Source: a virus. Taken from it: 64,000 nucleotides of DNA. The stretch spans positions 16,060-80,059 of the IMG/VR virus record IMGVR_UViG_3300046787_000286; one strand, 5' to 3'. The first letter of the stretch is position 1, and every line of letters begins with the position of its first letter. Below, in pieces: positions 43,010 to 58,493 of the stretch. Position numbers and translations under genes: made by a program. The notes below the pieces were generated by a model, which did no database searches, was not told the origin of the DNA, and was given only the letters and a program-made list of their open reading frames with translations.

Positions 43010-43093
43010 TGGTGCCCAGGGCGAGACTCGAACTCGCACGGATTTCTCCACTACCACCTCAAGATAGCGTGGCTACCATTACACCACCTGGGC
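43010..43093 (-). tRNA. tRNA-Leu (anticodon GAG), class II
   Basis: acceptor GCCCAGG/CCTGGGC, anticodon loop TTGAGGT, long variable arm, encoded CCA. Confidence 0.75.
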
Positions 43094-43468
43094 TTATCTT
43101 ATTGCTTTTGCTCTAGCGTGAATAACATCATCAACATTGCCTTTAACAATGACATTGGTGTAGGTGTCTACAAATTCGCTAGCATGATCTACCACACGAT
43201 TGTCAGGTTCGTGGTAGGTCCTAACTCGCTCGCTACCTGCTAGGTTGCGTTCCTTGTCTTTGTGGAAGTGTGCCTGAATGCGTGACAAGCAGGTAATGTA
43301 GGCTGCACGTTTGTTATCTTCGCGGCTACGGCTGTTAGTGCCGTTCGCTTGAATGCCAGTGGGCTCATGAATGCATCGGCAACAATTTTGATGCTTGTTA
43401 CGATGTTGCCCACCTTTGCCTGTTCCAGAGAACCACTCGTAACGAAATTGATCTTCTGTAATTTTCAT
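43094..43468 (-). CDS. peptidyl-tRNA hydrolase domain protein (ArfB/class I release factor-like, GGQ motif)
   Basis: SGTGKGGQHRNK...HEPTGIQANG; start moved to MKITEDQ so that it does not overlap the tRNA. Confidence 0.6.
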   Translation of the reverse strand: MKITEDQFRYEWFSGTGKGGQHRNKHQNCCRCIHEPTGIQANGTNSRSREDNKRAAYITCLSRIQAHFHKDKERNLAGSERVRTYHEPDNRVVDHASEFVDTYTNVIVKGNVDDVIHARAKAIR

Positions 43469-43483
43469 TGCAGTCTCCTGATT

Positions 43484-43557
43484 GGTGCGCGATGAGAGAT
43501 TCGAACTCCCGACATCTGTCGAGTCAGAACAGCGCTCTACCACTGAGCTAATCGCGC
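43484..43557 (-). tRNA. tRNA-Val (anticodon GAC) probable
   Basis: GCGCGAT acceptor, D arm GCTC/GAGC, anticodon loop CTGACTC (T at position 37 is unusual), T loop TTCGAAT. Confidence 0.55.
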
Positions 43558-43735
43558 AAAAAAAGCAGTAGGGTTACTGCAAACAGAATGAACTGAGTGG
43601 CTTGCCCTACTGCGGATGTTGTGTGCATACTACTTGTCTCATTATACTCCGCATGCAAGGGAGAGGCTTCTAACAGTAGGCGTTTAGAGTTCGGCGTTAG
43701 CGGAAACATCTAACCGTTTTGTCCTACTGTGTTAT

Positions 43736-43818
43736 TGGTGCGGACGGTGAGACTCGAACTCACACGCACTAGGCACTGGCTTCTAAGACCAGCGTGGCTA
43801 CCATTACACCACGTCCGC
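43736..43818 (-). tRNA. tRNA-Leu (anticodon TAG), class II
   Basis: acceptor GCGGACG, anticodon loop CTTAGAA, long variable arm. Confidence 0.75.
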
Positions 43819-43824
43819 AATTTT

Positions 43825-44052
43825 TTATCTAACTTTTTTAAGATACTCTGGACCGACTTTGCCGGCTTGCACTTCAAGTAATGCAGTAACTGAAGCATTC
43901 AACTGACCAGGATTTTCTGATCGTTTATGCCTGACAATAAGTTCACGCACTCTAGCAGATGCTGCGATTACTAAATCGAATCTGTTGCCAATTTGTTCAA
44001 CACAAGCGTCTGTATCAATTTGAGTTCCGCGACTTTCAGTGAGAATTTTCAT
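43825..44052 (-). CDS. hypothetical protein
   Basis: 75 aa ORF between tRNAs. Confidence 0.4.
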   Translation of the reverse strand: MKILTESRGTQIDTDACVEQIGNRFDLVIAASARVRELIVRHKRSENPGQLNASVTALLEVQAGKVGPEYLKKVR

Positions 44053-44072
44053 AAAATATCTAAGTTAGTTGT

Positions 44073-44146
44073 TGGATGCGGGAGACAGATTCGAACTGCC
44101 GATGCACCTGGCTTATGAGACCGGTGTGGTGGCCACCCTTCCCGCG
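44073..44146 (-). tRNA. tRNA-Met (anticodon CAT), atypical with short D arm and C1:A72 mismatch
   Basis: CGCGGGA...CTCATAA...GGCAGTTCGAATCTGTC TCCCGCA T CCA; resembles the initiator tRNA 5' end but is only 71 nt before CCA. Confidence 0.45.
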
Positions 44147-44153
44147 TAATTAC

Positions 44154-44720
44154 TTATACCAATTGTTCTGCTTGGAGCAAAGCAACTGTGTCGGCATCCA
44201 ATTCGATTTCGGTGCGAACGTTGAGTTCTAACACTTTGTCATTGATGCTTTGCTTTTCTTTCTTGAGGCTTCGCATGTCGGCTTTGTAGGCTTCGATTTG
44301 AAGGTTGTCTAACACGCCAGTGTCGACGTTGTCGTTGTAACCGTAAACACGGTTCTTGTTGTCTGTGTTGCGAAGTTTTTCTAACTTGCCGTTGAGAACA
44401 ACGTAAGACTCAGCAGCCTTGCTCTCTGTCAGGCCTTTCAGGTGTCCTAGACGCTTGTCAACAAACGCAGCTTCAGCAAGCAAATCGCTTACGCCACTTT
44501 CTACGTTAGCACGACCAACACGGGCACGGATGCCATACAACACCTTGGTCAACTTTGCACGACGAAGGTCGCTTTCAACTAATGCACCACGTGCAACAGC
44601 GATCTCACCTTCAACGGTCTGGAACTCGTTTAGGGAGATCGATGTTTTTACATCAATGGTTTTGATGTGATCCTGAATTGTGTTTTGCAGGGCGTTTGCT
44701 TTGCGAAGTGTAATCTTCAT
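44154..44720 (-). CDS. hypothetical protein
   Basis: 188 aa, coiled-coil character. Confidence 0.5.
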   Translation of the reverse strand: MKITLRKANALQNTIQDHIKTIDVKTSISLNEFQTVEGEIAVARGALVESDLRRAKLTKVLYGIRARVGRANVESGVSDLLAEAAFVDKRLGHLKGLTESKAAESYVVLNGKLEKLRNTDNKNRVYGYNDNVDTGVLDNLQIEAYKADMRSLKKEKQSINDKVLELNVRTEIELDADTVALLQAEQLV

Positions 44721-44743
44721 ATTCGAGTTCCTTTCTATTTGAA

Positions 44744-44772
44744 TTAGTAGCAGTGAGCGTATGGCAAGTCAA
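44744..44772 (-). promoter_or_regulatory. sigma70-like promoter TTGACT-N17-TACTAA
   Basis: -10 at 44744-44749, -35 at 44767-44772. Confidence 0.45.
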
Positions 44773-45025
44773 TCGCCGGACAATGTGCAAGAGACATTAG
44801 CGAATGATAATTTTTCAGGTTATCACTTTACTAAAGCAAAATACAAGAGACAGAGGATACCAATATTTCCGAGCATCAACAAACAGCGACTATAACAGCC
44901 AGTATAATCTCGGATCACTGGATCACGATTGGTAATTCCAGTAAGCATTTCAAGTGCTAACTAGAGGTGCAATCTCTCATCTCCATACACATCACAGTCC
45001 TGTTTTAAGAAACAGGCAAAAACTT

Positions 45026-45103
45026 TGGAGTCCCGGGTAGGATTCAAACCTACGAATCGATGGATTTGCAATCCACGCCATTAAGTCGCTCTGGTACCGA
45101 GAC
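45026..45103 (-). tRNA. tRNA-Cys (anticodon GCA)
   Basis: acceptor GTCTCGG/CCGGGAC, anticodon loop TTGCAAA, T arm GTAGG-TTTGAAT-CCTAC, CCA. Confidence 0.65.
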
Positions 45104-45526
45104 ATATTCTTTATATGTAAACACACTAAAACGCGACCTTAGTTTCCCAGTTACGGTATTGTCAGTTGGTATAATGTGTTTGCATATAAAGTGGCGGACT
45201 GAGAATACATCCTAACCTAGTAACACCTCGGACATTATTACAAACCTTGCGAGTCTGCTTTCTTCCGACTTCCACTAAAACCATATTGCTATGTATTCTA
45301 GTCTGTTACCAGTATCGCCGTTTTTAAAGACAGGCAGTAGTCTTGTCGTCACATGCTACTCTACACCATCTATCCCGTTGACCTTTAGAGCCATTCACTG
45401 TCGCTAAACAGCTACGAAACTTCCAGTATAAACAGATTTCACCTTGCGAGTTACGTCTGACTGTATTGCCTTGCGGCTACAGCATTAGATACTTTTCACA
45501 CATGACCGAGTCAGTCTTTGCATTTT

Positions 45527-45598
45527 AATCGTTAGCGGGAGTTGAACCCGCAGTCGACTCCTTAACAGGGAGTTGGCCTACCATTAGCCTATAACAAC
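45527..45598 (-). tRNA. tRNA-Asn (anticodon GTT), no encoded CCA
   Basis: GTTGTTA TA GGCT AATGGTA GGCC A ACTCC CTGTTAA GGAGT CGACT GCGGG TTCAACT CCCGC TAACGAT T. Confidence 0.65.
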
Positions 45599-46105
45599 CT
45601 ACTGCGATGTGCTGACTCAGTTGCTTCATACTCTTTTGGAATACAAAATACAACACACCACGTTCCTTTTGTCTTGCGAACTACTCAGACGTCTTTTGCG
45701 ATATGTGTCGGGTCTCGGCTTTCGCGTACCTCCACTTACCACTCAAACTGCATACGAGCCCTAGGGTGCAACCCCTCGGACAAATACACTACCCTTTCTC
45801 ATACCAATTAACTGGACTGGTTTCGTTGTGAAGTCAGCACCACCTGTTACTTTCCATCTACTCAAGTTCCCCTTGATGCAATCTCAGGCTTGTAAGCAAA
45901 CGTTCTTTCCACAACATCCAGCGTCATTGTTACAACCACCGGTCTTATCAGTGATCGCTCCCTTGCAGGAGTGAGCAGGCTTGCCTAAGTGAACTATTTT
46001 TAGTAGCGGAGTTATGTAGGCATACCTCCTTTGGCTGTGTCACCACAGTTATTCTTCACTAGATAGCAAGCTACCTAGTAGGACATTAAGCTGCCCTTAT
46101 ATTCT

Positions 46106-46134
46106 ATTATAACATTGATTGCTGCACTTGTCAA
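46106..46134 (-). promoter_or_regulatory. sigma70 consensus promoter TTGACA-N17-TATAAT
   Basis: -10 at 46106-46111, -35 at 46129-46134; faces the ORF-free RNA region. Confidence 0.6.
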
Positions 46135-46332: not shown

Positions 46333-47541
46333 TTGGGTAAAGTGTTATATAAATATTCCACTATGAATAAATCTAAAACTTTTTGTATAGCCACTCATGT
46401 TTGTATGGCAGTACAAAACGAAGTTGACTACTGTTGTTGCAACGCCAACAAAGAAAGTTGGAAAACAAATGACCACCAAGTCATGCGTGTAAACGAACAC
46501 TCTCCCAAACAAGCCTGGAACAGCTATTCTCGTAAAATAATAAGAGAAGTATTAGATAATGGGCAACAACATCATTCGTGCCAGAAGTGTTGGGACATTG
46601 AGGCTGCTGGTAGCATAAGTCAACGTATGACATTGAATAATATGTTTGTTGATGTTGAGTTACTCAACGACCAACCGCAGATTATAATTATAAAACCCGG
46701 AAATACTTGTAATTTTGCATGCCGAATGTGCAATCCTGAAACTAGCTCAAGCTGGTATTCGGATGCATACAAATTAGAAAAATCTACTTTGCCCTTTTCC
46801 GAATACACTCGTAAGTTTGAAACTATACGAAACAGTTTTAACCGTGATAATGAAAATTTTTGGAATACCTTCAAACAGTGGTTGCCAACTATAAAGTACA
46901 TTGACATTTACGGCGGAGAACCATTCTTAGCTCCTGCATTGTTTGATCTACTAGAGCACGGAGTTAACATAGGTGCTGCAAAAGAAGTTTCTTTGCAACT
47001 GCATACAAATGCATCAATCATGAATCAACATTATCTTGATATTTTAAGTCAGTACAAAAAAGTTACCTGTAAAGTAAGTATTGATTCAAGTGATCCGAAG
47101 AAAAACGATTACATACGGCATCAAGGAAACTTTGATAAAACAATAGCTAATGCAAAATTATTCAAAACATTTTTTGATCAACATAAAAATTTAAATTTTG
47201 GAGTAACATACACACTTACGCCGTTGAATGTGTTCCATGTGGATCAAGATAAAGAACTTATTAGCGAACTATTAGAATTACCTAAAATAGATGTAAACAT
47301 AGTAACTACACCAGAATACGACATACGTCACTTACCGATTCCAGTTAAGGACTTTCTAATTAATAATATTAACGATAGCTCGGTGAACAATTTTCTAAAA
47401 CAAACTATACCAGGTTGCGACATTGAGTGGCCAAAATTCTGTAAAGTAACTGATGAGTTAGATGCCATACGCAACCAAAGTTTTGCCGAAACATTCCCCG
47501 AATGGTGGGAAATGCTCAAACCATACTGGGTGTCTCAATGA
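46333..47541 (+). CDS. radical SAM family protein, paralog 8 (isolated copy)
   Basis: PGNTCNFACRMCNP, IYGGEP, C-terminal FPEWW motif; N-terminal Cys cluster. Confidence 0.65.
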   Translation: MGKVLYKYSTMNKSKTFCIATHVCMAVQNEVDYCCCNANKESWKTNDHQVMRVNEHSPKQAWNSYSRKIIREVLDNGQQHHSCQKCWDIEAAGSISQRMTLNNMFVDVELLNDQPQIIIIKPGNTCNFACRMCNPETSSSWYSDAYKLEKSTLPFSEYTRKFETIRNSFNRDNENFWNTFKQWLPTIKYIDIYGGEPFLAPALFDLLEHGVNIGAAKEVSLQLHTNASIMNQHYLDILSQYKKVTCKVSIDSSDPKKNDYIRHQGNFDKTIANAKLFKTFFDQHKNLNFGVTYTLTPLNVFHVDQDKELISELLELPKIDVNIVTTPEYDIRHLPIPVKDFLINNINDSSVNNFLKQTIPGCDIEWPKFCKVTDELDAIRNQSFAETFPEWWEMLKPYWVSQ

Positions 47542-47969
47542 AACTATTACTAGGACTTAGGGGCACAGCAGAATGTAATGATGTTTGTGTTGAGGTTTTT
47601 GTAAATCAAAAATTAATTGCTCAACGCACATCTCAACTTGACGAATTTATAACCGAACTAGTATTGCCAGAAAACCCTGCTGCTCATGTGGTAGAGATCT
47701 GCATATCTGGGAAAACAGAAAAACATACAGAAGTCGATGCACAGGGCAACATTGTATCTGATGTAGCATTTATAATAGAAACGCTACAAATCGAAGACAT
47801 AGACATGAAGCCAGTGTTCTGCCAAGGCAGACAGTGCTACTATCACTCATCGAACATTCCCAATGGGCCAATAATTCAAGATGAGTTATACGATTATATA
47901 GGGTTTAACGGAAAAGTTCAACTCGAATTCTTTACACCTATATATCTATGGATGAGTGAATACTTTTGA
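47538..47969 (+). CDS. hypothetical protein
   Basis: start at MKLLLG, ATGA-coupled to radical SAM paralog 8. Confidence 0.4.
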   Translation: MKLLLGLRGTAECNDVCVEVFVNQKLIAQRTSQLDEFITELVLPENPAAHVVEICISGKTEKHTEVDAQGNIVSDVAFIIETLQIEDIDMKPVFCQGRQCYYHSSNIPNGPIIQDELYDYIGFNGKVQLEFFTPIYLWMSEYF

Positions 47970-47979: not shown

Positions 47980-48471
47980 TTACGCTACTTGAGCATGCCC
48001 GCGAGCATTGCCTAAGCTACGGAAGCGATCAGCTGCATAAGAAGCTGCAAACGCTTGTGGCTTAACTAAGGGTTCAACGTTGCATACGCCACGTATGTAA
48101 CCGATAGCTTGGCTAACAACACAGCTTGAACCGTGCATTTCGTTAGGGTTAATATCCAAGTGAACTTCGACATCGCGACCTTCTAACACATCGGCTAACT
48201 TCAAATACAATGCTGACACTTTATAAACTTCAGTCATCAAGCGAGTGCTAGGACGGCTTGCACGTTGGTCATAATCGCGTTCGCGAGTTACTTCACCAAA
48301 CAGCTTACAACCGTGGTTGCCATCGATATGAACCACAATGACTGCTGTATAAACAGCATGCCATACGCCGTTGATTCTTGTACGTTCAGAGTCACAACCA
48401 ATATAAATTTTAGTTTCTAGACTTTGTTCTACTATGAAGTCACGGATTTCATCGATGTTAAATTTTGTCAT
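47980..48471 (-). CDS. hypothetical protein (possibly RNase H-like fold)
   Basis: 163 aa ORF. Confidence 0.35.
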   Translation of the reverse strand: MTKFNIDEIRDFIVEQSLETKIYIGCDSERTRINGVWHAVYTAVIVVHIDGNHGCKLFGEVTRERDYDQRASRPSTRLMTEVYKVSALYLKLADVLEGRDVEVHLDINPNEMHGSSCVVSQAIGYIRGVCNVEPLVKPQAFAASYAADRFRSLGNARGHAQVA

Positions 48472-48487: not shown

Positions 48488-48563
48488 TGGCGACCCCTGA
48501 TGGATTCGAACCACCGACACGCGGCTTTGGAGACCGCTGTTCTGCCAACTGAACTAAGGAGCC
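48488..48563 (-). tRNA. tRNA-Trp (anticodon CCA)
   Basis: GGCTCCT TA GTTC AGTTGGCA GAAC A GCGGT CTCCAAA GCCGC GTGTC GGTGG TTCGAAT CCATC AGGGGTC G CCA. Confidence 0.8.
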
Positions 48564-48568: not shown

Positions 48569-48642
48569 TGGTAGCCTGTAGAGGTTACGATCCTCTGTCG
48601 CTCGATTATCAGTCGAGTGCTCTACCATTGAGCTAACGGGCT
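48569..48642 (-). tRNA. tRNA-Ile (anticodon GAT), atypical T-loop ATCGTAA
   Basis: anticodon arm CTCGA-CTGATAA-TCGAG; acceptor has one C:A mismatch. Confidence 0.55.
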
Positions 48643-52749: not shown

Positions 52750-52824
52750 TGGTGGATGTAGCTAGATTCGAACTAGCGGTAGGCACCGTATGAAGATGCT
52801 GCATTACCACTTTGCTATACATCC
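52750..52824 (-). tRNA. tRNA-Met/Ile2 (anticodon CAT)
   Basis: GGATGTA ... GCATC TTCATAC GGTGC ... GCTAG TTCGAAT CTAGC TACATCC A CCA. Confidence 0.75.
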
Positions 52825-52939
52825 ATATAGAAGCACTCTCAAATGCAGGCCTAGGAGGAGTCAAGCTCTGAAACCTTTGCGTATGCATCCACTAGGGTCT
52901 CTTCTCCCGCTTTGACTTATGCTAAGAATACTTCTATAT

Positions 52940-53014
52940 GGGGTGTTAGATGGGGAACGATCCCATACTATCGCTTTCACAGAGCAATGTGCAGACCACT
53001 ACACTACTAACACC
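52940..53014 (-). tRNA. tRNA-His (anticodon GTG) with encoded G-1
   Basis: G-1 pairs with C73; anticodon arm TTGCT-CTGTGAA-AGCGA; T-loop ATCGTTC; CCA. Confidence 0.75.
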
Positions 53015-53639
53015 ATAAATATTTTTGTGAAAACTTACTACAGTCAAACACCAGCCGGATTAGACTTTCAATTGAGTCTAAGTGATGATGGCGTGTGTTG
53101 CATTATAGTTTACGACACTTACGATTGTGAACTTGTCATGCGCTATTTCACTAACGTCAATCGAGCTCTACGCTTTATCAACAATCTCTAATACCATATA
53201 GAAACACATTCTTGACGTAAAGGGTCTTTTCATCGCGCTGGTTAGGCTGCTTCATAGTGAGACTCAACTATTAACCAAGTTGCTCGAAGTCTACTATCAA
53301 TGATGAATGCATTTCTATATGGCATTTGTAAAGCCGGCTCACTTTGAGCACCCTCGTCCTCCACGGACGGAGTTCTATTGTCATCATCAGTAGCATCCAA
53401 CAACGCAGGGCCCATTGTTATCTTACTCTACCAACTTATCGCGTCCCTTGCTCATACCCGTCGGTAATCACTCAGGCTTTCATTTAAACTACAGCTTAAC
53501 AAATACCATATGAAAACATTCTGTTGTGCTTGAAACAGTGACAACCCATCTTCCTGGCAACTTTTACCTGTATAGTCGACTTCAGGGTTACTCGATGAAC
53601 TCCAGTGTAGTTGTTCAGAATGTTTACATATAGCAAGCT

Positions 53640-53730
53640 CATTGTAGGCAGGGCTCGAACCTGCACACAGTCCTTACGGATAATGTCGCCCCTATAACGG
53701 GGCAATGTCTACCAATTCCATCACTACGAG
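53640..53730 (-). other. tRNA-like element (T-arm GCAGG-TTCGAGC-CCTGC plus GCCCC hairpin), unresolved
   Basis: T-arm is clear but acceptor pairing is not. Confidence 0.25.
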
Positions 53731-53963
53731 CTCCTGGAGTTAATTACTCTCCAGCATGGGTGTTACCTGCAGATAACACTTACCATATGTAAACACACTA
53801 ACGAACCTGGCTGTGGGCCGCGAACCCACTGTTTTCGCGTGGCACCAGCAAGTATTGCCACAATTACTGGTTAATGTGTTTGCATATGGTAGGGCTGCGG
53901 GGTAATGATCCCCGTTCTACTGGTTAAAAGCCAGTTGCTTCACCTTAAAGCTTCAACCCCATA

Positions 53964-54039
53964 TGGTCCCTCTGGTGGGAGTCGAACCCACACGTCACGG
54001 ATTAAGAGTCCGGCATGCTGCCTTAACATCTCAAAGGGA
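53964..54039 (-). tRNA. tRNA-Lys (anticodon CTT)
   Basis: CCCTTTG AG ATGT TAAGGCA GCAT G CCGGA CTCTTAA TCCGT GACGT GTGGG TTCGACT CCCAC CAGAGGG A CCA. Confidence 0.7.
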
Positions 54040-54148
54040 TGGATTGTAAAAATTGTCTTTTACGTGCCATCCCGGACCATACAGGGTACAGGGATGACAC
54101 TAACGTTTACCTGAACGTTTCATATCAAAGTTTCCTTATAAAAAATTT

Positions 54149-54224
54149 TGGTGCCGAAGAATGGATTTGAACCAGTGACACACGGATTTTCAATCCGCTG
54201 CTCTACCAACTGAGCTACATCGGC
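54149..54224 (-). tRNA. tRNA-Phe (anticodon GAA)
   Basis: GCCGATG TA GCTC AGTTGGTA GAGC A GCGGA TTGAAAA TCCGT...; close to the E. coli tRNA-Phe consensus. Confidence 0.8.
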
Positions 54225-54231
54225 AATTGTT

Positions 54232-54305
54232 TGGTGCTCTCACCAGGTATCGATCCTGGGTTTCTACATTACCAATGTAGTGTAATGCCTTTATACTATG
54301 AGAGC
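54232..54305 (-). tRNA. tRNA-Thr (anticodon GGT)
   Basis: acceptor GCTCTCA/TGAGAGC, anticodon arm CTACA-TTGGTAA-TGTAG, T-loop ATCGATA. Confidence 0.75.
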
Positions 54306-54578: not shown

Positions 54579-54653
54579 TGGTCCGGCGTGCAGGAATCGA
54601 ACCCACATTCATGAGGTAGAAGCTCATTGTACTATCCATTGTACTAACGCCAG
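54579..54653 (-). tRNA. tRNA-Arg (anticodon TCT)
   Basis: anticodon arm ATGAG-CTTCTAC-CTCAT, acceptor CTGGCGT/ACGCCGG. Confidence 0.7.
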
Positions 54654-54659
54654 ATATGG

Positions 54660-54770
54660 TAGGAGCGGTGGGAATTGAACCCACGTTAACTGCCTTATCT
54701 AGACAGTGCTTACGGCTGTATAAGGGCCGCCCTTAGGCCAACATTAGCAACACTCCCATTGAAAAACACA
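54660..54770 (-). other. tRNA-like element ~110 nt (T-arm GTGGG-TTCAATT-CCCAC, CCA), class II-like or disrupted
   Basis: possible acceptor GGGAGTG/CGCTCCT, but I found no canonical anticodon arm. Confidence 0.3.
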
Positions 54771-54845: not shown

Positions 54846-54920
54846 TGGAGTCGCATACGGGTTACGATCCCGTCTGGTCACCTTGAAAGGGTGATGACCT
54901 CACCAGAAGTCTAATGCGAC
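54846..54920 (-). tRNA. tRNA-Glu (anticodon TTC)
   Basis: GTCGCAT TA GACT TCTGGTGA GGTC A TCACC CTTTCAA GGTGA CCAG ACGGG ATCGTAA CCCGT ATGCGAC T CCA. Confidence 0.75.
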
Positions 54921-55148
54921 ATTGTTGAATTTGTAAGTAGTTGAGCCACTTTTATCTCAACTTTTTTCCTGATTATACAAGTCCGGACAGGGGGCGGCAT
55001 GACACTTGGGATACTAAGTCCAGCGTGGCAACCATACTGCACCGATCCTTTCGGATCAGCCGGGAGTCGAACCCGCTTGCCTTTTACTACACAACACCTT
55101 CGAAGAATATTGAATAGCGTGACATTCTCTTGCTGACACTTACAAAAT

Positions 55149-55222
55149 TGGTGGAGGATAACAGAATCGAACTGTTGCGAAAACCTTGCAAAGGTCCCAG
55201 GCTACCACTACATCAATCCCCC
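55149..55222 (-). tRNA. tRNA-Ala (anticodon TGC)
   Basis: acceptor GGGGGAT/ATCCTCC, loop TTTGCAA, T arm AACAG-TTCGATT-CTGTT. Confidence 0.7.
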
Positions 55223-55233: not shown

Positions 55234-55308
55234 TGGAGCCTTTGTAAAGAATCGAACTTCAGTTCCCGGCTTCGTAGACCAGTGTATTATCCATTATACG
55301 ACAAAGGC
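55234..55308 (-). tRNA. tRNA-Arg (anticodon ACG)
   Basis: acceptor GCCTTTG/CAAAGGC, anticodon arm CTGGT-CTACGAA-GCCGG. Confidence 0.7.
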
Positions 55309-55317: not shown

Positions 55318-55393
55318 GGCCCCGGAGGGAGGAATCGAACCTCCATTGGTTGTATACGGACCGTGTTACCATTACACTACAACCGGGATATAG
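55318..55393 (-). other. pseudo-tRNA/tRNA-like element (canonical D and T arms, no anticodon stem, ends CCT)
   Basis: GTGT-AATGGTA-ACAC and GGAGG-TTCGATT-CCTCC arms, but the middle does not fold. Confidence 0.3.
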
Positions 55394-55546
55394 GTTTTTG
55401 AGAGTTCCAACTATCTTTCTCAAGGACTCGCCGGGCTTGTCTCGTATGAGGGAGTTTAAACTACCTTGTGTTGCTACTGGTGTGTCAGTCTCAAGAATAG
55501 GGACCTAGCGCACAAGGGACTCAACCTCTACGTCTATCTCAAAAAT

Positions 55547-55620
55547 TGGTGCCCCATAACAGAATCGAACTGCTATCCCCGGATTACAAAACCGGTGTTC
55601 TACCATTTAACTAATGGGGC
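55547..55620 (-). tRNA. tRNA-Thr (anticodon TGT)
   Basis: acceptor GCCCCAT/ATGGGGC, loop TTTGTAA, T:T at 31:39. Confidence 0.65.
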
Positions 55621-55629
55621 AAATTGTTG

Positions 55630-55715
55630 GCTCCGTGTGTGAGATTCGAACTCACCTAGTCACTGATTAACAGTCAGGTCCTTGCACCTAGCTTGGATTT
55701 CACGGAATAAAATTG
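55630..55715 (-). other. tRNA-like element with GTT anticodon-type hairpin and aberrant 5' half
   Basis: CCTGA-CTGTTAA-TCAGT hairpin and GTGAG-TTCGAAT-CTCAC T-arm; acceptor has one mismatch; too long in the D region. Confidence 0.3.
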
Positions 55716-55926: not shown

Positions 55927-56001
55927 TGGCGGTCCCAGGGGGTAACGATCCCCCTCCTCAGCAGTGACAGTGCTGTGTGCGTCCATGAACACCTTGAGAC
56001 C
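55927..56001 (-). tRNA. tRNA-Asp (anticodon GTC)
   Basis: GGTCTCA AG GTGT TCATGGAC GCAC A CAGCA CTGTCAC TGCTG AGGA GGGGG ATCGTTA CCCCC TGGGACC G CCA. Confidence 0.75.
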
Positions 56002-56076: not shown

Positions 56077-56161
56077 TGGTGGAGGTGGCTGGACTTGAAC
56101 CAACAATGCACAAGGGCGGCGGATTTACAGTCCACTGGGGATACCATTTTCCTACACCTCC
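56077..56161 (-). tRNA. tRNA-Tyr (anticodon GTA), class II
   Basis: acceptor GGAGGTG/CACCTCC, anticodon arm GTGGA-CTGTAAA-TCCGC, long variable arm. Confidence 0.75.
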
Positions 56162-56265: not shown

Positions 56266-56349
56266 TGGTAGGACCGACCGGAATCGAACCGGTACGCATT
56301 ACGCGGCAGATTTTAAGTCTGCTGTGGCTACCTATTACACCACGGTCCC
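56266..56349 (-). tRNA. tRNA-Leu (anticodon TAA), class II
   Basis: anticodon arm GCAGA-CTTAAAA-TCTGC, long variable arm, T arm ACCGG-TTCGATT-CCGGT. Confidence 0.75.
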
Positions 56350-56360
56350 ATAAATTGTTC

Positions 56361-56568
56361 TGGCGGTGCGAAACCATCTGCACACTTACGCCTCTTAGCT
56401 TCTCACACCCGGGTGTTTACGCTTGGGTCATCGCCTGAAACTTGGTGGACAACAATGGGAATCTAACCCACTTCTCCCTCCTATGCTATTAGGAAGTTTC
56501 AGCACAGCATCAGTGCATCACGACAGTAAGTCCATAAACTTGGAAGAGCGTAGGGGAGTCGAACCCCT
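56361..56568 (-). other. unresolved structured region with tRNA 3'-half-like elements (..TCGCACC G CCA; AGGGG-TTCGACT-CCCCT ACGCTCT T CCA)
   Basis: two CCA-terminated T-arm/acceptor-like 3' halves with no matching 5' halves, downstream of the HNH gene. Confidence 0.25.
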
Positions 56569-57006
56569 CTACAAGTCTTCTAAATCTTTTATACTCAAAC
56601 TGGCTCGGTTAGTTTTTCCACTGCCCCAGCCAGTTTGCAATCCTTTTAGCATATTTGCTTTTGCCTCTGGGCTAGCGTTTCTGCTACCCCATGTGTCTGT
56701 TTGTGTATGACAGTTAGGACAAAGCCAAGTCACATTGTCAATGGTATTGTTTTTTGGATCGCCGTCGATATGTTCTAACTGGAGAACTAATTTCTTGCCA
56801 TTCCAATCACTAATACCACAACAACTGCACTTATACTCTGAAAATCTCTTTAGATAAGTTTTAGCATTGCCTTTATTGGCTTTGCCACTTTCCATTATAG
56901 TTTTTATCCTATAATCTTGAGTGCATTCTCTACTACAAAAATGCCCTGATTGTTGCGAATCAAAATACTTGTATTCTGTGTTGCAACTTTTACACAATCC
57001 AATCAT
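56569..57006 (-). CDS. HNH homing endonuclease
   Basis: HIDGDPKNNTIDNVTWLCPNCH HNH/zinc motif; N-terminal CxxC..CxxC. Confidence 0.7.
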   Translation of the reverse strand: MIGLCKSCNTEYKYFDSQQSGHFCSRECTQDYRIKTIMESGKANKGNAKTYLKRFSEYKCSCCGISDWNGKKLVLQLEHIDGDPKNNTIDNVTWLCPNCHTQTDTWGSRNASPEAKANMLKGLQTGWGSGKTNRASLSIKDLEDL

Positions 57007-57048
57007 TGGTTAGTTCTCCTTGCATTTATTTAGCAAACTAACCAATAA

Positions 57049-57123
57049 TGGTACTCCGAAGGAGAATCGAACTCCTCTTTCCGCCTTGAAAGGGCAGCGT
57101 CCTAACCGATAGACGACCGGAGC
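57049..57123 (-). tRNA. tRNA-Glu (anticodon TTC), second copy
   Basis: GCTCCGG TC GTCT ATCGGTTA GGAC G CTGCC CTTTCAA GGCGG AAAG AGGAG TTCGATT CTCCT TCGGAGT A CCA. Confidence 0.65.
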
Positions 57124-57632
57124 ATAATAAACACTATACATAAACACATTGGGATGATTGACAACAACCTATCTAGGCTAACCACGCTATCGTCTAGCGA
57201 CTGGCTGTCAAACACATTACAATCCTACCTGGTCCAGCGTGACTACTGATCAAAGCCTAAGCCGATTTCCATCTTTCATGTAACATAGCACGGCTGACAC
57301 GGCTGTCAACATCGCGATGCTATTGTTACCTACTGGGGCGGTAACCCAATGCGTTTGTGTATAGTGTCCGGAACTGAATCCGGATTCACTATACAAAAAT
57401 AAATTTTTAATGAACATTAGCTAGTTGCCTAACTAAGTGTCTAGTATAACATGATTGCCGATACTAGTCAATTTATTTGTTGCAAGTCCTTACACTTTGT
57501 AGGGTTACTTGGTATTCAGTTAGTTGCCTAACTTCCTAACTAGCCTCTAGTATAACACTCTTTTGATAAGTGGTCTACCACAAAATATTAACCCTACGCA
57601 ATGTAGGGTTATGTAATACTTTTGTTTGTAGA

Positions 57633-57708
57633 TGGTCTCCATAGAAGGATTTGAACCTTCACCACATGCTCCCAAAGCATGGACGCTACCAGGTTACGCC
57701 ATACGGAG
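57633..57708 (-). tRNA. tRNA-Pro (anticodon TGG)
   Basis: anticodon arm CATGC-TTTGGGA-GCATG, T arm GAAGG-TTCAAAT-CCTTC. Confidence 0.7.
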
Positions 57709-57713
57709 ATAAA

Positions 57714-57935
57714 TTATTTTACTTTTGGTTCTTTTGATTTGTCAAGCTCATGTGGCTCAGCAAATCTTGTAGGTGGATGGTCAAATGTTAGCCCCATCGA
57801 CTTAAACCAACCTAATGGTTTCCAGTACTTGTGTATAATGTTGTTGACTATAACTAACCCAACAATGATTACAACAAAACCCATCATTGTCAATACTGAC
57901 CCGGCTAAAAATACCGCTGCTTGATCCATGTCCAT
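57714..57935 (-). CDS. small single-pass membrane protein (73 aa)
   Basis: hydrophobic helix GSVLTMMGFVVIIVGLVIV; fits exactly between two tRNAs. Confidence 0.35.
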   Translation of the reverse strand: MDMDQAAVFLAGSVLTMMGFVVIIVGLVIVNNIIHKYWKPLGWFKSMGLTFDHPPTRFAEPHELDKSKEPKVK

Positions 57936-57951
57936 AATTTTTAAAGTCCTT

Positions 57952-58027
57952 TGGAGCGGGCAAAGAGACTCGAACTCTCGACATCTTCCTTGGCAAGGAA
58001 GTGCTCTACCAACTGAGCTATACCCGC
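57952..58027 (-). tRNA. tRNA-Gly (anticodon GCC)
   Basis: GCGGGTA TA GCTC AGTTGGTA GAGC A CTTCC TTGCCAA GGAAG ... Confidence 0.8.
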
Positions 58028-58077
58028 ATTATATTTTACTTATTATACAACACTCTTGCTGTGTTGTAAAGACATTT

Positions 58078-58154
58078 TGGTGCCGCCACGTGAACTCGAA
58101 TCACGGACCTTCCGCTTATCAAGCGGATGCTCTAACCAACTGAGCTATGGAGGC
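58078..58154 (-). tRNA. tRNA-Ile (anticodon GAT)
   Basis: GCCTCCA TA GCTC AGTTGGTTA GAGC A TCCGC TTGATAA GCGGA AGGTC CGTGA TTCGAGT TCACG TGGCGGC A CCA. Confidence 0.8.
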
Positions 58155-58159
58155 ATATT

Positions 58160-58248
58160 TGGAGGAAGGATGGTAGAATCGAACTCCAACCGCTTTCGCA
58201 GTCCATCTGTTTTCAAGACAGTGCAGGGCCCAGCCCTGATAACCTTCC
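58160..58248 (-). tRNA. tRNA-Ser (anticodon TGA)-like, class II, aberrant T-stem
   Basis: GGAAGGT... CTTGAAA anticodon loop, GCGAAAGC variable hairpin; T-stem TGGAG/CTACC pairs poorly and there is an extra nucleotide before the acceptor 3' strand. Confidence 0.4.
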
Positions 58249-58254
58249 ATGTTG

Positions 58255-58328
58255 TGGTCTGGGTAGGAAGAATCGAACTTCCGCATCAAGTATCCAAGAC
58301 TCGGAGACTACCACTATCTTATACCCAG
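58255..58328 (-). tRNA. tRNA with anticodon TGG (Pro-like), second copy
   Basis: acceptor CTGGGTA/TACCCAG, anticodon arm CGAGT-CTTGGAT-ACTTG, T arm GGAAG-TTCGATT-CTTCC. Confidence 0.5.
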
Positions 58329-58335
58329 ATTGTTT

Positions 58336-58410
58336 TGGTGGACCGTAGGAGAATCGAACTCCTGCTAAAGCGTTGCAAACGCCCTGTGCTACCATTATCA
58401 CTAACAGCCC
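58336..58410 (-). tRNA. tRNA-Ala (anticodon TGC), second copy
   Basis: GGGCTGT ... GGGCG TTTGCAA CGCTT ... AGGAG TTCGATT CTCCT ACGGTCC A CCA. Confidence 0.65.
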
Positions 58411-58419
58411 ATAAATTGT

Positions 58420-58493
58420 TGGCACGGGAACTAGGGATCGAACCTAGGACGACAGAGTCAAAGTCTGTTGTGTTACCTCTACACCATTCCCGA
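58420..58493 (-). tRNA. tRNA-Gln (anticodon TTG)
   Basis: D arm GTGT-AGAGGTA-ACAC, anticodon arm ACAGA-CTTTGAC-TCTGT, T arm CTAGG-TTCGATC-CCTAG; T1:T72 mismatch. Confidence 0.65.

What the first reader, a model, noticed from the sequence alone, without database searches (positions are those of the whole stretch)
43010..58493. Exceptionally large minus-strand tRNA array (at least 35 parsable tRNAs) with duplicated isoacceptors and non-canonical features
Hand-folding gives tRNAs for:
- Leu (GAG, TAG, CAA, TAA), Val (GAC?, TAC), Met/Ile2 (CAT x2), Cys, Asn (GTT x2), Trp, Ile (GAT x2), Arg (TCG, TCT, ACG).
- Gly (TCC, GCC), Ser (GCT, TGA-like), His (with G-1), Lys (CTT), Phe, Thr (GGT, TGT), Glu (TTC x2), Ala (TGC x2), Asp, Tyr, Pro (TGG x2?), Gln.

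Most encode CCA. Several show recurrent oddities: T:T mismatches at 30:40 or 31:39 or 1:72, and T-loops reading ATCGTAA/ATCGTTA/ATCGATA instead of TTCRANY. Duplicated isoacceptors have unrelated sequences, which suggests independent acquisition.
Basis: seen in the sequence. Interest (0 to 1): 0.6.

Follow-up and report, generated by a model that had tools for sequence, protein, structure and literature searches.

The report
Jumbo-phage tRNA and structured-RNA island
This is a genuine, near-complete set of about 38 transfer RNA genes carried by a very large bacterial virus; such arrays are already known, but its spacers also hold odd tRNAs and undescribed folded RNAs.

Summary
ARAGORN minus-strand tRNAs in 43010-58493, against 0 in 30 shuffles and 0 in the other 43 kb. 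Rfam. Thirty-three genes are canonical and encode CCA, and they cover all 20 amino acids.

The A54 T-loops (seven tRNAs), the U·U mismatches and the encoded G-1 of tRNA-His are real.

The array is not exceptional. Relatives in IMG/VR (186 hits, contigs up to about 520 kb) carry up to 36 tRNAs in 15 kb or less, and huge phages are reported with up to 67.

The region is an RNA island driven by consensus sigma-70-type promoters. It also holds:
- a GOLLD RNA with a tRNA-like domain in its linker;
- a two-piece tmRNA;
- an RNA-repair cassette (Rnl1 ligase, polynucleotide kinase, phosphoesterase);
- an HNH endonuclease gene.

The likely role is to keep phage translation running when host tRNAs are depleted or cut. 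That is an inference.

Less ordinary parts:
- a widespread CAU tRNA of initiator type without a supported D-stem (at least 119 contigs);
- a tRNA-Ser(UGA) with a tRNA-Sec-like fold;
- three covariation-supported spacer RNAs absent from Rfam.

The parts
43010..43093 (-). tRNA-Leu(GAG), CCA encoded
   Evidence: ARAGORN. Not in the Rfam gathering list.
43483..43557 (-). tRNA-Val(GAC), CCA encoded
   Evidence: ARAGORN. Rfam 62.6 bits.
43736..43818 (-). tRNA-Leu(TAG), CCA encoded; 76% identical to Leu(GAG)
   Evidence: 57.7 bits.
44073..44146 (-). Non-canonical CAU tRNA of initiator type. It has a GCGGG(A/U) acceptor, an unpaired 1:72, no supported D-stem, a 7-bp bulged anticodon stem, a canonical T-arm and CCA.
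   Evidence: My T-arm/CCA scan. ARAGORN only at -ps85. Compensatory changes in relatives. At least 119 IMG/VR contigs. Pair counts on 32 sequences.
45026..45103 (-). tRNA-Cys(GCA), CCA encoded
   Evidence: 47.1 bits.
45166..46117 (-). GOLLD RNA. The Rfam core is 45196-45661. The conserved 5' part runs up to about 46117, and its extent is inferred from conservation.
   Evidence: RF02032, 197.6 bits against a gathering score of 150, full model length. Conserved in L001, L011, L046, L067 and L072. A 12/12 promoter lies at 46134-46106.
45526..45599 (-). tRNA-Asn(GUU)-like domain in the GOLLD linker, no CCA
   Evidence: Rfam tRNA 64 bits, lying in the unstructured linker of the GOLLD alignment. A tRNA in the GOLLD linker is already reported (PMC12286853).
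46165..46253 (-). tRNA-like domain just 5' of GOLLD. It has a 6-nt 'anticodon' loop, no CCA, and an acceptor-like stem extended by an outer stem.
   Evidence: ARAGORN '???'. Eight homologues with covarying D-stem and variable-arm stems. A 12/12 promoter lies at 46317-46289.
46333..47969 (+). Opposite-strand insert: a radical SAM protein (46333-47541) and a 155-aa ORF. Local GC is 37%.
   Evidence: Pfam PF04055; PHROGs; composition.
47980..48471 (-). RNase H-like protein (PF04308)
   Evidence: E 2.5e-16; phrog_11311.
48488..48563 (-). tRNA-Trp(CCA), CCA encoded
   Evidence: 59 bits.
48569..48642 (-). tRNA-Ile(GAU), copy a, T-loop AUCGUAA (A54:U58)
   Evidence: 62.2 bits.
48827..48901 (-). tRNA-Arg(UCG), U30·U40
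   Evidence: 58.9 bits.
49082..50029 (-). Rnl1-type RNA ligase
   Evidence: PF09511. phrog_562, E 4e-52. 186 IMG/VR relatives.
49980..50441 (-). Polynucleotide-kinase-type P-loop kinase
   Evidence: PF13671. phrog_505, polynucleotide kinase.
50451..50993 (-). Phosphoesterase
   Evidence: phrog_547, E 7e-48. Conserved in nearly all 80 loci.
51272..51754 (-). Dual-specificity-phosphatase-like protein (weak match)
   Evidence: Pfam hits below the cut-off. phrog_5614 and phrog_32716.
51831..51905 (-). tRNA-Val(UAC)
   Evidence: 59.7 bits.
51914..51987 (-). tRNA-Gly(UCC), U30·U40
   Evidence: 67.3 bits.
51996..52071 (-). tRNA-Asn(GUU), copy a
   Evidence: 55.9 bits.
52081..52170 (-). tRNA-Ser(GCU), long variable arm
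   Evidence: 48.9 bits.
52662..52744 (-). tRNA-Leu(CAA)
   Evidence: 52.6 bits.
52750..52824 (-). tRNA-Met(CAU), copy a (elongator Met or Ile2; not decided)
   Evidence: 62.9 bits.
52939..53014 (-). tRNA-His(GUG) with encoded G-1 (base 53014) and T-loop AUCGUUC
   Evidence: 54 bits.
53190..53325 (-). Structured spacer RNA 'A7', about 125 nt, closed by an 18-20-bp stem. No Rfam family.
   Evidence: 20 of 39 predicted pairs have compensatory changes in 10 sequences. No Rfam match at E up to 5.
53620..53800 (-). Structured RNA module that contains the tRNA-like domain 53640-53730 (hexaloop GUUAUA, no CCA), two 5' hairpins and a long closing stem
   Evidence: ARAGORN '???'. Alignment with four relatives.
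   Evidence: 50.2 bits.
53964..54038 (-). tRNA-Lys(CUU)
   Evidence: 46.6 bits.
54039..54127 (-). Conserved spacer: a Shine-Dalgarno-like site, a 7-codon mini-ORF (54123-54100, MKRSGKR*) and a conserved hairpin
   Evidence: Alignment with three relatives, which read MKRSGKL*, MKRTGKL* and MKRSKR*.
54149..54224 (-). tRNA-Phe(GAA), U6·U67
   Evidence: 65.9 bits.
54232..54305 (-). tRNA-Thr(GGU), T-loop AUCGAUA (A54:A58)
   Evidence: 61 bits.
54579..54653 (-). tRNA-Arg(UCU); 81% identical to Arg(UCG)
   Evidence: 55.8 bits.
54657..54757 (-). 101-nt tRNA-like RNA ending in CCA, with extra hairpins. Function unknown.
   Evidence: Rfam tRNA 38.5 bits. It matches the ends of the tmRNA models. Folding. 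Two homologues.
54846..54920 (-). tRNA-Glu(UUC), copy a, T-loop AUCGUAA
   Evidence: 43.6 bits.
54962..55146 (-). Structured spacer RNA 'A6', with a T-loop-like hairpin and a covarying hairpin capped by GAA(A). No Rfam family.
   Evidence: 19 of 33 pairs have compensatory changes in 15 sequences. The only Rfam match is tRNA-Sec at 21 bits, E 1.4.
55149..55222 (-). tRNA-Ala(UGC), copy a, G3·U70
   Evidence: 49.6 bits.
55234..55308 (-). tRNA-Arg(ACG)
   Evidence: 53.6 bits.
55318..55387 (-). Degenerate tRNA-like sequence (short anticodon arm, mismatched acceptor, no CCA); probably a relic
   Evidence: Rfam 32.8 bits. Folding z-score -0.03. No close relatives.
55388..55546 (-). Structured spacer RNA 'A5', about 150 nt. 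No Rfam family.
   Evidence: 14 of 47 pairs and 21 of 45 pairs in 46 sequences have compensatory changes. 73 IMG/VR contigs hold its invariant 19-mer. No Rfam match.
55547..55620 (-). tRNA-Thr(UGU), U31·U39
   Evidence: 64.5 bits.
55628..55706 (-). tRNA-Asn(GUU), copy c. Irregular D-arm, A7·A66, CCA encoded.
   Evidence: ARAGORN at -ps85. Rfam 26.3 bits. 31 related loci at 80% identity or more.
55927..56001 (-). tRNA-Asp(GUC), T-loop AUCGUUA
   Evidence: ARAGORN only. Not reported by Rfam.
56077..56161 (-). tRNA-Tyr(GUA), long variable arm
   Evidence: 45.7 bits.
56266..56349 (-). tRNA-Leu(UAA)
   Evidence: 54.4 bits.
56540..57006 (-). HNH endonuclease gene (56569-57006), followed by an orphan T-arm + acceptor 3' strand + CCA fragment (56540-56575)
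   Evidence: phrog_10822, E 8e-27. Sequence. No 5' half was found.
57049..57123 (-). tRNA-Glu(UUC), copy b
   Evidence: 52.7 bits.
57633..57708 (-). tRNA-Pro(UGG), copy a
   Evidence: 58.3 bits.
57952..58027 (-). tRNA-Gly(GCC)
   Evidence: 69.6 bits.
58078..58154 (-). tRNA-Ile(GAU), copy b
   Evidence: 66.1 bits.
58160..58248 (-). Irregular tRNA-Ser(UGA). It has a 6-bp D-stem with a 3-4-nt loop, a long variable arm, U7·U66, a bulged T-stem, U73 and CCA (tRNA-Sec-like / allo-tRNA-like fold).
   Evidence: ARAGORN at -ps85. Rfam tRNA-Sec 45.9 bits against a gathering score of 47. 10 of 28 pairs compensatory in 3 sequences.
58255..58328 (-). tRNA-Pro(UGG), copy b
   Evidence: 56.7 bits.
58336..58410 (-). 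tRNA-Ala(UGC), copy b, G3·U70
   Evidence: 51.3 bits.
58420..58493 (-). tRNA-Gln(UUG), U1·U72
   Evidence: 60.4 bits.
59346..59811 (-). Two-piece (permuted) tmRNA gene with its promoter (59811-59783) and terminator (59390-59371). G3·U70 is present. Predicted tag: ANANTKGEVAINARGVKIARRAAVLA.
   Evidence: ARAGORN. RF04321 91.1 bits against a gathering score of 47, and beta_tmRNA 62.4 bits. Promoter and terminator scan.
61061..61172 (-). tRNA-Met(CAU), copy b (T-loop AUCGUAA), with a 12/12 promoter at 61172-61144
   Evidence: 53.4 bits.

Best explanation
The region is the tRNA gene island of a very large (jumbo or 'huge') bacteriophage from a widespread environmental clade.

Shown:
- It holds 33 canonical tRNA genes that encode CCA, plus four irregular CCA-ending tRNA-like genes, all on the minus strand. 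Tyr, Asp, His and Asn are among the tRNAs present.
- Together they cover all 20 amino acids and read about 92% of the window's codon occurrences under strict wobble rules.
- The island is punctuated by several consensus sigma-70-type promoters, so host RNA polymerase could transcribe it as several polycistrons.
- Interleaved with the tRNAs, or next to them, are an RNA healing-and-sealing cassette (polynucleotide kinase, phosphoesterase, Rnl1 ligase), a GOLLD RNA with a tRNA-like domain in its linker, a two-piece tmRNA, an HNH endonuclease gene, and structured spacer RNAs.

Inferred mechanism:
- The island gives the phage its own decoding set, largely independent of the host. This keeps late translation going when host tRNAs are depleted by host shut-off or cut by anticodon nucleases.
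- The kinase, phosphoesterase and ligase repair cleaved tRNAs, as T4 Pnkp and Rnl1 do after PrrC cleavage.
- The tmRNA frees stalled ribosomes.
- Variant tRNA features (A54:U58 T-loops, stem mismatches, irregular Ser and initiator-type tRNAs) may reduce recognition by host tRNA-targeting enzymes.
- The islands evolve by reassortment among related phages.
For: The tRNA genes are real:
- Searches identify them; the controls give 0 calls in 30 shuffles and 0 in window 1-43000.
- Identity elements are in place: G3·U70 in both tRNA-Ala, and G-1 in tRNA-His.

Decoding coverage: all 20 amino acids, and 92% of codon occurrences in 50 window ORFs under strict wobble. What remains is the TCY, CCY and GCY codons, which U34 can usually read in four-codon boxes, and ATA.

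Phage context:
- 186 IMG/VR stretches encode the ligase homologue at 73-92% identity, on contigs up to 364 kb.
- The initiator-type tRNA is on contigs up to 524 kb.
- Window ORFs match phage protein families (PHROGs) for thymidylate synthase, exonuclease and HNH endonuclease.

Repair cassette:
- Rnl1 (PF09511, phrog_562), PNK-type kinase (PF13671, phrog_505) and phosphoesterase (phrog_547).
- It is the most conserved segment among 80 loci.
- It lies within 10 kb of tRNAs in 7 of 10 loci examined.

Promoters: four 12/12 and nine 11/12 sigma-70-type sites, all on the minus strand.

Published parallels:
- Phage tRNAs are proposed to evade anticodon nucleases (PMC10264068).
- GOLLD lies near tRNA islands and can hold a tRNA in its linker (PMC12286853; PMC6582537).

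Reassortment: each paralogue has its own orthologues in relatives, and tRNA order differs between relatives.
Against: - No expression, charging or cleavage data exist.
- The host is unknown. A scan of bacterial genomes with the tmRNA motif matched only the T-arm region. Neither codon-usage compensation nor anticodon-loop divergence from host tRNAs could therefore be tested.
- The repair cassette is not always beside tRNAs: 3 of 10 ligase loci had none within 10 kb.
- No SmpB partner for the tmRNA was found in the window; the neighbouring ORFs have no Pfam match.
- The link between A54:U58 or the stem mismatches and nuclease evasion is speculation. Nothing on it was found in the paper library.
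Confidence: 0.7

Rival explanations
1. Codon-usage compensation. The phage carries tRNAs mainly for codons that are common in its own genes (GC3 about 40%) but rare in a host of different base composition.
For: - The window's ORFs favour A/T-ending codons, with GC3 of 0.40.
- Both U34 tRNAs and G34 or C34 tRNAs are supplied for many boxes.
- This is the classical explanation for phage tRNAs (discussed in PMC10264068).
Against: - The set is nearly complete rather than selective. It also covers codons the phage rarely uses, such as CTC (6% of Leu codons), CGG (4% of Arg) and ACG (4% of Thr).
- It has no canonical tRNA for ATA, which makes up 22% of Ile codons.
- The co-located repair enzymes and tmRNA are not explained.
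- The host is unknown, so there is no direct test.
Confidence: 0.2
2. Selfish accretion. The array grows through mobile cassettes (homing endonucleases, recombination between related phages), and many members are redundant passengers or relics with little selective value.
For: - An HNH endonuclease gene sits inside the array, with an orphan tRNA 3' fragment right after it.
- A degenerate tRNA-like relic lies at 55318-55387.
- A low-GC insert lies on the opposite strand at 46333-47969.
- Gene order is highly variable among relatives.
- Isoacceptors are duplicated.
Against: - 97% of 2129 unique tRNAs in relatives keep an encoded CCA.
- Stems keep pairing through compensatory changes, even in the irregular tRNAs.
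- Identity elements are kept.
- Both copies of each duplicated isoacceptor are conserved in many contigs.
- These all indicate purifying selection.
Confidence: 0.08
3. The array is not viral. It is a horizontally transferred tRNA array on a bacterial chromosome or plasmid, like the Mycobacterium tRNA arrays that also carry GOLLD and HNH.
For: Mycobacterial arrays of 32-37 tRNAs with GOLLD and an HNH endonuclease exist (PMC6582537). No terminase or capsid gene was identified in this window.
Against: - All relatives found are IMG/VR viral contigs, many of 100-520 kb.
- Window ORFs match phage protein families, including virion-structural and scaffold-like hits (weak), thymidylate synthase and exonuclease.
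- There is no match in GenBank phages at the DNA level, and the plasmid collection was not searched.
Confidence: 0.02

Closest known systems
tRNA islands of huge and jumbo phages (Al-Shayeb et al. 2020, PMC7162821) and of cluster C1 mycobacteriophages (about 33 tRNAs; PMC10264068)
   Same: Dozens of clustered tRNA genes covering most or all amino acids. tmRNA and RNA-ligation genes sit in the same genomes. The proposed role is to sustain or redirect translation and to counter tRNA-targeting defence.
   Different: This clade has no close relative among GenBank phages. Its island is unusually rich in non-tRNA structured RNAs and irregular tRNAs. The count of about 38 is within the known range of up to 67.
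GOLLD RNA in tRNA arrays (Lactobacillus prophage and lake metagenomes; Mycobacterium tRNA arrays with GOLLD and HNH, PMC6582537; cryo-EM 14-mer cage, PMC12286853)
   Same: Full-length Rfam match above the gathering score. It lies inside a tRNA array, has a tRNA-like sequence in its linker, and an HNH endonuclease gene is in the same array.
   Different: Here it has its own 12/12 consensus promoter and a second tRNA-like domain immediately 5' of it. Oligomeric state and function were not tested.
Phage T4 tRNA region plus Pnkp and Rnl1, which repair tRNA-Lys cut by PrrC (my own knowledge; summarised in PMC10264068)
   Same: Phage tRNA genes are combined with polynucleotide kinase/phosphatase and an Rnl1-family ligase. 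T4's tRNA cluster also encodes stable small RNAs of unknown function.
   Different: T4 has 8 tRNAs, and its kinase and phosphatase are fused in one protein, encoded elsewhere in the genome. Here the kinase and phosphoesterase are separate genes embedded in the array. No cognate host nuclease is known.
(8/4) tRNA-Ser and allo-tRNAs in tRNA clusters of alphaproteobacterial phages (Mukai et al. 2017, PMC5389517)
   Same: A serine anticodon, a long variable arm, a tRNA-Sec-like long D-stem with a tiny loop, U73, and location in a phage tRNA cluster.
   Different: The acceptor/T branch reads better as 6 bp + U7·U66, followed by a 5-bp T-stem with a bulged A, than as a clean 8/4. The tRNA-His here is ordinary 7/5 with G-1.
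Phage-encoded two-piece tmRNAs (Melnitz-like marine phages; 53 two-piece types among 402 tmRNA-carrying phages, PMC9004378)
   Same: Permuted gene order, G3·U70, and a tag reading frame, in an aquatic-type phage.
   Different: The best clan match is to the betaproteobacterial two-piece model, but below its gathering score (62 against 84 bits). No riboswitch and no SmpB gene were seen nearby.
Bacterial initiator tRNA-fMet
   Same: CAU anticodon in a CUCAUAA loop, G2-C71/C3-G70/G4-C69 as in E. coli tRNA-fMet (my own knowledge), and an unpaired 1:72 in 28 of 32 family members.
   Different: There is no supported D-stem, and the D-region is too short to hold the usual G18-G19. The anticodon stem has 7 bp with a bulge, and the pair next to the loop is U31·G39. 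It therefore lacks the three consecutive G-C pairs typical of initiators.

Membership tests
Phage tRNA gene island | Many tRNA genes clustered on one strand, far above chance | tested here: met
   36 ARAGORN and 34 Rfam calls in 15.5 kb, against 0 in 30 shuffles and 0 in the other 43 kb.
Phage tRNA gene island | Viral genomic context | tested here: met
   Relatives are IMG/VR viral contigs of up to 364-524 kb. Flanking ORFs match PHROG families. No capsid or terminase gene lies within this window.
Phage tRNA gene island | The tRNAs are expressed and aminoacylated during infection | not testable with these tools
   Only promoter-like sites and conserved identity elements are available.
GOLLD RNA (RF02032) | Covariance-model score at or above Rfam's gathering score over the full model | tested here: met
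   197.6 bits against 150, model positions 1-416.
GOLLD RNA (RF02032) | Phage or prophage location next to tRNA genes, with an optional tRNA in the linker | tested here: met
   It lies between tRNA-Cys and the tRNA-like domain at 46165. The Asn-like tRNA sits in the linker. Literature.
GOLLD RNA (RF02032) | Assembly into a 14-mer RNA cage | not testable with these tools
   This needs cryo-EM or native gels.
Two-piece (permuted) tmRNA | Match to the permuted tmRNA model above the gathering score, with the 3' acceptor/T-arm piece upstream of the 5' acceptor and coding piece | tested here: met
   RF04321, 91.1 bits against 47. The alignment shows T-arm, acceptor 3' strand and CCA, then about 70 nt, then GGGCCUG and the coding part.
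Two-piece (permuted) tmRNA | G3·U70 alanine identity pair, and a tag ORF with a resume codon and a stop | tested here: met
   GGGCCUG pairs with CAGGUCC to give G3·U70. ARAGORN predicts the tag ANANTKGEVAINARGVKIARRAAVLA**.
Two-piece (permuted) tmRNA | SmpB partner encoded by the phage | tested here: not met
   The neighbouring ORFs 59857-60405 and 60488-61042 have no Pfam match. A host SmpB could serve. This is not a strict membership criterion.
T4-type RNA healing-and-sealing pathway (Pnkp + Rnl1) | Rnl1-family RNA ligase | tested here: met
   PF09511, 50.5 bits against 28.3. phrog_562, E 4e-52.
T4-type RNA healing-and-sealing pathway (Pnkp + Rnl1) | 5'-kinase and 2',3'-phosphate-removing activities | tested here: inconclusive
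   A kinase (PF13671, phrog_505) and a separate phosphoesterase (phrog_547) are present by family match. Their substrates were not tested.
T4-type RNA healing-and-sealing pathway (Pnkp + Rnl1) | A host anticodon nuclease whose damage is repaired | not testable with these tools
   The host is unknown.
(8/4) tRNA-Ser / allo-tRNA (Mukai 2017) | 12-bp acceptor branch arranged 8/4 or 9/3 | tested here: inconclusive
   ARAGORN draws 8 bp with a U·U mismatch and a poor 4-5-bp T-stem. The three-sequence consensus supports a 6-bp acceptor and a T-stem with a bulge.
(8/4) tRNA-Ser / allo-tRNA (Mukai 2017) | tRNA-Sec-like long D-stem with a very small loop, a long variable arm, and G73 or U73 | tested here: met
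   A 6-bp D-stem with 3 covarying pairs, a covarying variable arm, and U73. tRNA-Sec model 45.9 bits.
Bacterial initiator tRNA | CAU anticodon and an unpaired 1:72 | tested here: met
   The CUCAUAA loop is invariant, and 1:72 is unpaired in 28 of 32 sequences.
Bacterial initiator tRNA | Three consecutive G-C pairs at 29-31:39-41 | tested here: not met
   The pairs next to the loop are U·G, G-C, and G-C or A-U, followed by a bulge.
Bacterial initiator tRNA | Canonical cloverleaf with a D-arm (A11:U24) | tested here: not met
   The candidate D-stem shows no covariation and is broken in 14 of 32 sequences at one pair. It works like an initiator at most; it is not filed as a standard member.

The most novel reading that the evidence does not exclude
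The island is more than a tRNA array. It would be a toolbox of RNA classes not yet described.

- One is a D-stem-less CAU tRNA of initiator type, conserved with compensatory changes in at least 119 large-phage contigs. If it is charged and used, it would be a structurally non-canonical tRNA working in bacterial translation, possibly an initiator that escapes VapC-type nucleases.
- The others are at least three structured spacer RNAs (about 125-185 nt) and tRNA-like domains closed by long stems. These could be processed out of the polycistron and act with GOLLD in translation takeover or in countering host defence.
Probability: 0.45. Interest if true: 0.7.

Novelty: new member of a known kind. 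Interest (0 to 1): 0.42.

Why it matters
As a tRNA array it adds one more example to a known pattern. Very large phages carry near-complete decoding sets, a tmRNA and RNA-repair enzymes, which fits the idea that tRNA supply is contested between phage and host.

Its value lies in the details.
- It is a compact locus where canonical tRNAs, irregular tRNAs, GOLLD, a tmRNA and repair enzymes can be studied together.
- It exposes RNA families that standard tRNA and Rfam scans miss.
[quoted passage not shown] A conserved phage tRNA without a D-stem would be a natural counter-example worth testing.
- The recurrent A54:U58 swap is a natural experiment on the T-loop.

Tried and rejected
- Source contig. 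An exact-protein look-up for the ligase and the RNase H-like protein found nothing. Megablast of the window against GenBank phages gave only short tRNA matches. No locus fetched is 97% or more identical over 500 nt.
- Host identification through the tmRNA. A motif scan of bacterial genomes returned Rhodocyclales, Chlorobi, Chloroflexi and others. BLAST of the whole phage tmRNA against them matched only about 40 nt of the T-arm region. No host call is made.
- Intron-containing tRNAs. ARAGORN with -i found none.
- The 98-101-nt element at 54657-54757 considered as tRNA-Sec or as an intron-bearing tRNA. Rejected, because there is no UCA anticodon and no recognisable anticodon loop.
- The HNH gene considered as an intron inside a split tRNA. 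No matching 5' acceptor strand was found within 1.1 kb upstream, and there is no group I intron hit in Rfam.
- The spacer at 54921-55148 considered as a circularly permuted tRNA gene. The comparative alignment supports separate hairpins of a larger RNA instead.
- The degenerate 55318-55387 considered as a functional tRNA-Ile(UAU). It folds no better than shuffled sequence and has no conserved relatives.
- Literature on A54:U58 T-loops and on D-arm-less phage tRNAs. Nothing relevant was found.

Full report

It also reports tRNA-Met at 61061-61135 and a permuted tmRNA at 59346-59791. Rfam's covariance models report 34 tRNA matches above the gathering score, a full-length GOLLD RNA, and a permuted tmRNA.

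Thirty dinucleotide-preserving shuffles of 43010-58493 gave no ARAGORN call. The other 43 kb of the window holds none. The array is therefore real and far above chance.

The second CAT (44073-44146) and the 'TGA-like' Ser (58160-58248) are irregular and appear only at lowered ARAGORN thresholds. The Ser also scores 45.9 bits against the tRNA-Sec model.

**2. Anatomy of the tRNA set**

They cover all 20 amino acids.

Expected identity elements are in place:
- Both tRNA-Ala have G3·U70.
- tRNA-His has an encoded G-1 opposite C73.
- tRNA-Gln has an unpaired 1:72.

Under strict wobble rules the set reads 92% of the codon occurrences in 50 long ORFs of the window. Two groups are left. TCY, CCY and GCY are usually reached by modified U34 in four-codon boxes (my own knowledge). 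ATA makes up 22% of Ile codons and has no canonical decoder here, unless one of the CAU tRNAs is an Ile2 species.

**3. The 'non-canonical features'**

Seven tRNAs have A at position 54: Ile-GAU 48569, His, Lys-UUU, Thr-GGU, Glu 54846, Asp and Met 61061. Six of them have U at 58, which is a swap of the usual T54:A58 pair. One has A58.

In 2129 unique tRNAs from related contigs the 54:58 combinations are:

| 54:58 | Count |
|---|---|
| T:A | 2000 |
| A:T | 82 |
| A:A | 35 |
| C:A | 8 |
| C:G | 2 |
| G:G | 2 |
| T:T | 0 |

The variants sit mostly in the same isoacceptors as in the window. It is therefore a heritable, coordinated variant of particular tRNA lineages in this clade, not noise. The window is enriched for it (7 of 37, against 5.5% in relatives). 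I found nothing about it in the paper library.

**4. Duplicated isoacceptors**

The Ile, Glu, Pro, Met and Asn copies are 54-67% identical, and the Ala pair is 73%. Any two tRNAs of the array are 61 +/- 5% identical. They are not recent duplicates.

Each copy, however, has its own orthologues at 80% identity or more in 3 to 42 related contigs. tRNA order differs widely among relatives. The better description is old paralogous lineages kept within the clade and reassorted by recombination.

Arg-UCG/Arg-UCU (81%) and Leu-GAG/Leu-UAG (76%) look like duplication followed by an anticodon change.

**5. What else is in the interval**

- GOLLD RNA. The Rfam core is 45196-45661 (197.6 bits against a gathering score of 150). 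The 'tRNA-Asn' at 45526-45599 has no CCA and lies in the model's unstructured linker. Conservation in five relatives extends the RNA 5' to about 46117, where a 12/12 consensus promoter sits.
- RNA-repair cassette. It comprises Rnl1-family ligase (49082-50029), a polynucleotide-kinase-type kinase (49980-50441), a phosphoesterase (50451-50993) and a weak dual-specificity-phosphatase-like protein (51272-51754). This is the most conserved segment among 80 related loci.
- An HNH endonuclease gene (56569-57006), followed by an orphan T-arm + CCA fragment.
- An RNase H-like protein, and an opposite-strand, low-GC radical SAM insert.
- Just outside the interval, a two-piece tmRNA (91 bits against 47). 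It has G3·U70, its own promoter and its own terminator.
- Promoters. Thirteen sigma-70-type sites matching 11 or 12 of 12 consensus positions all lie on the minus strand.

**6. Irregular tRNAs supported by comparison**

The Ser(UGA) gene has a 6-bp D-stem with a 3-4-nt loop, a long variable arm, U73 and a T-stem with a bulge. Ten of its 28 predicted pairs show compensatory changes in just three sequences. It resembles the tRNA-Sec-like (8/4) tRNA-Ser, or allo-tRNAs, already reported in phage tRNA clusters (PMC5389517). A clean 8/4 branch is not shown here.

On 32 distinct sequences:
- 93% of cells are paired, and 9 pairs covary.
- The acceptor stem (G2-C71, C3-G70, G4-C69 invariant), a 7-bp bulged anticodon stem and the T-stem are supported.
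- 1:72 is unpaired in 28 of 32 sequences.
- The candidate D-stem is not supported.

It therefore looks like an initiator tRNA in its acceptor end and anticodon loop, but it lacks a normal D-arm and the three G-C pairs of initiators.

**7. tRNA-like domains that are not tRNAs**

The two ARAGORN '???' calls have 6-nt loops and no CCA. Their acceptor-like stems continue into an outer stem built from AAACACAU / AUGUGUUU-type repeats. Both are conserved with covariation in relatives.

One lies immediately 5' of GOLLD. The other is part of a 180-nt module. Together with the domain in the GOLLD linker, they suggest that tRNA-like folds serve here as parts of larger RNAs or as processing signals. That is an inference.

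The 101-nt CCA-ending RNA at 54657-54757 remains unexplained.

**8. Structured spacer RNAs**

Three spacers are conserved and fold with abundant compensatory changes:

| Name | Coordinates | Compensatory pairs | Sequences |
|---|---|---|---|
| A5 | 55388-55546 | 21 of 45 | 46 |
| A6 | 54962-55146 | 19 of 33 | 15 |
| A7 | 53190-53325 | 20 of 39 | 10 |

The invariant 19-mer of A5 occurs in 73 IMG/VR contigs. A permissive Rfam search of 52100-59400 gives no family for any of them. Their function is unknown. Phage T4's tRNA cluster likewise encodes stable RNAs of unknown function (my own knowledge).

**9. What it is and how it probably works**

Relatives are IMG/VR viral contigs up to 364-524 kb. 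There is no close relative among GenBank phages. The region is the tRNA and RNA island of a huge phage.

What is shown: the genes, their conservation, the promoters, and the family assignments.

What is inferred: the island lets the phage keep translating when host tRNAs are depleted or cleaved; the kinase, phosphoesterase and ligase heal and seal cut tRNAs, as in T4; and the tmRNA rescues stalled ribosomes.

This agrees with published proposals (PMC7162821, PMC10264068). It could not be tested here, because the host was not identified.

**10. Novelty and score**

Large phage tRNA arrays (up to 67 tRNAs), GOLLD within tRNA arrays, phage two-piece tmRNAs (PMC9004378), RNA-repair genes and irregular tRNA-Ser are all known. 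Relatives of this phage carry up to 36 tRNAs in 15 kb or less.

The finding as stated is therefore a new member of a known kind, of moderate interest. The D-stem-less initiator-type tRNA family, the A54:U58 lineages and the three spacer RNA families are the parts that merit follow-up.

Noticed in passing
window 45166-46117 (-): Full-length GOLLD RNA (Rfam 197.6 bits) with a tRNA-Asn-like domain in its linker, its own 12/12 consensus promoter, and a second tRNA-like domain (46165-46253) just upstream.
   Followed up: yes
window 59346-59811 (-): Two-piece (permuted) tmRNA with G3·U70, a promoter and a terminator. Its best clan match is the betaproteobacterial two-piece model, below that model's threshold. 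No SmpB gene lies nearby.
   Followed up: partly
window 55388-55546, 54962-55146, 53190-53325 (-): Three conserved spacer RNAs with many compensatory base-pair changes and no Rfam family. The first has an invariant 19-mer present in 73 IMG/VR contigs.
   Followed up: yes
window 44073-44146 (-); L081-L198: CAU tRNA of initiator type without a supported D-stem, present in at least 119 viral contigs of up to 524 kb. ARAGORN at default settings and Rfam both miss it.
   Followed up: yes
window 54100-54123 (-) and the hairpin to 54039: A 7-codon mini-ORF (MKRSGKR*) with a Shine-Dalgarno-like site. It is conserved as MKRSGKL*, MKRTGKL* and MKRSKR* in three relatives and is followed by a conserved hairpin.
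   Followed up: partly
L031:4461-4555, L058:4626-4719, L061:4-95, L013:4784-4875 and others: Relatives carry CCA-ending tRNAs with a UAU anticodon and a long variable arm, some with a tRNA-Sec-like D-arm. These resemble the allo-tRNA(UAU) described by Mukai et al. The window lacks one, although ATA makes up 22% of its Ile codons.
   Followed up: partly
L005:4332-4407: One relative encodes a tRNA with a CUA anticodon (an amber-suppressor type, labelled Pyl by ARAGORN). No suppressor tRNA is in the window.
   Followed up: no
window 5819-18826 (+), 22902-24903 (-): A run of six radical SAM proteins, one of them with a SPASM domain, plus a Nol-like carbamoyltransferase, an aminotransferase and a nucleotide-sugar epimerase. 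A seventh radical SAM gene lies at 46333-47541. This is a large auxiliary biosynthetic or modification cluster of unknown product.
   Followed up: partly
window 56540-56575 (-): An orphan tRNA 3' fragment (T-arm, acceptor 3' strand, CCA) lies directly after the HNH endonuclease gene. No 5' half was found.
   Followed up: partly
window 53780-53800, 53620-53640, 54760-54850, 53800-53886, 46254-46270 (-): Repeated AAACACAU... / ...AGUGUGUUU motifs form long stems that close individual RNA modules. They may be double-strand-specific processing sites; this was not tested.
   Followed up: partly
window 61172-61144, 59095-59067, 46317-46289, 46134-46106 (-): Four perfect 12/12 sigma-70 consensus promoters (TTGACA, 17 nt, TATAAT) and nine 11/12 sites, all on the minus strand of the island.
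   Followed up: partly
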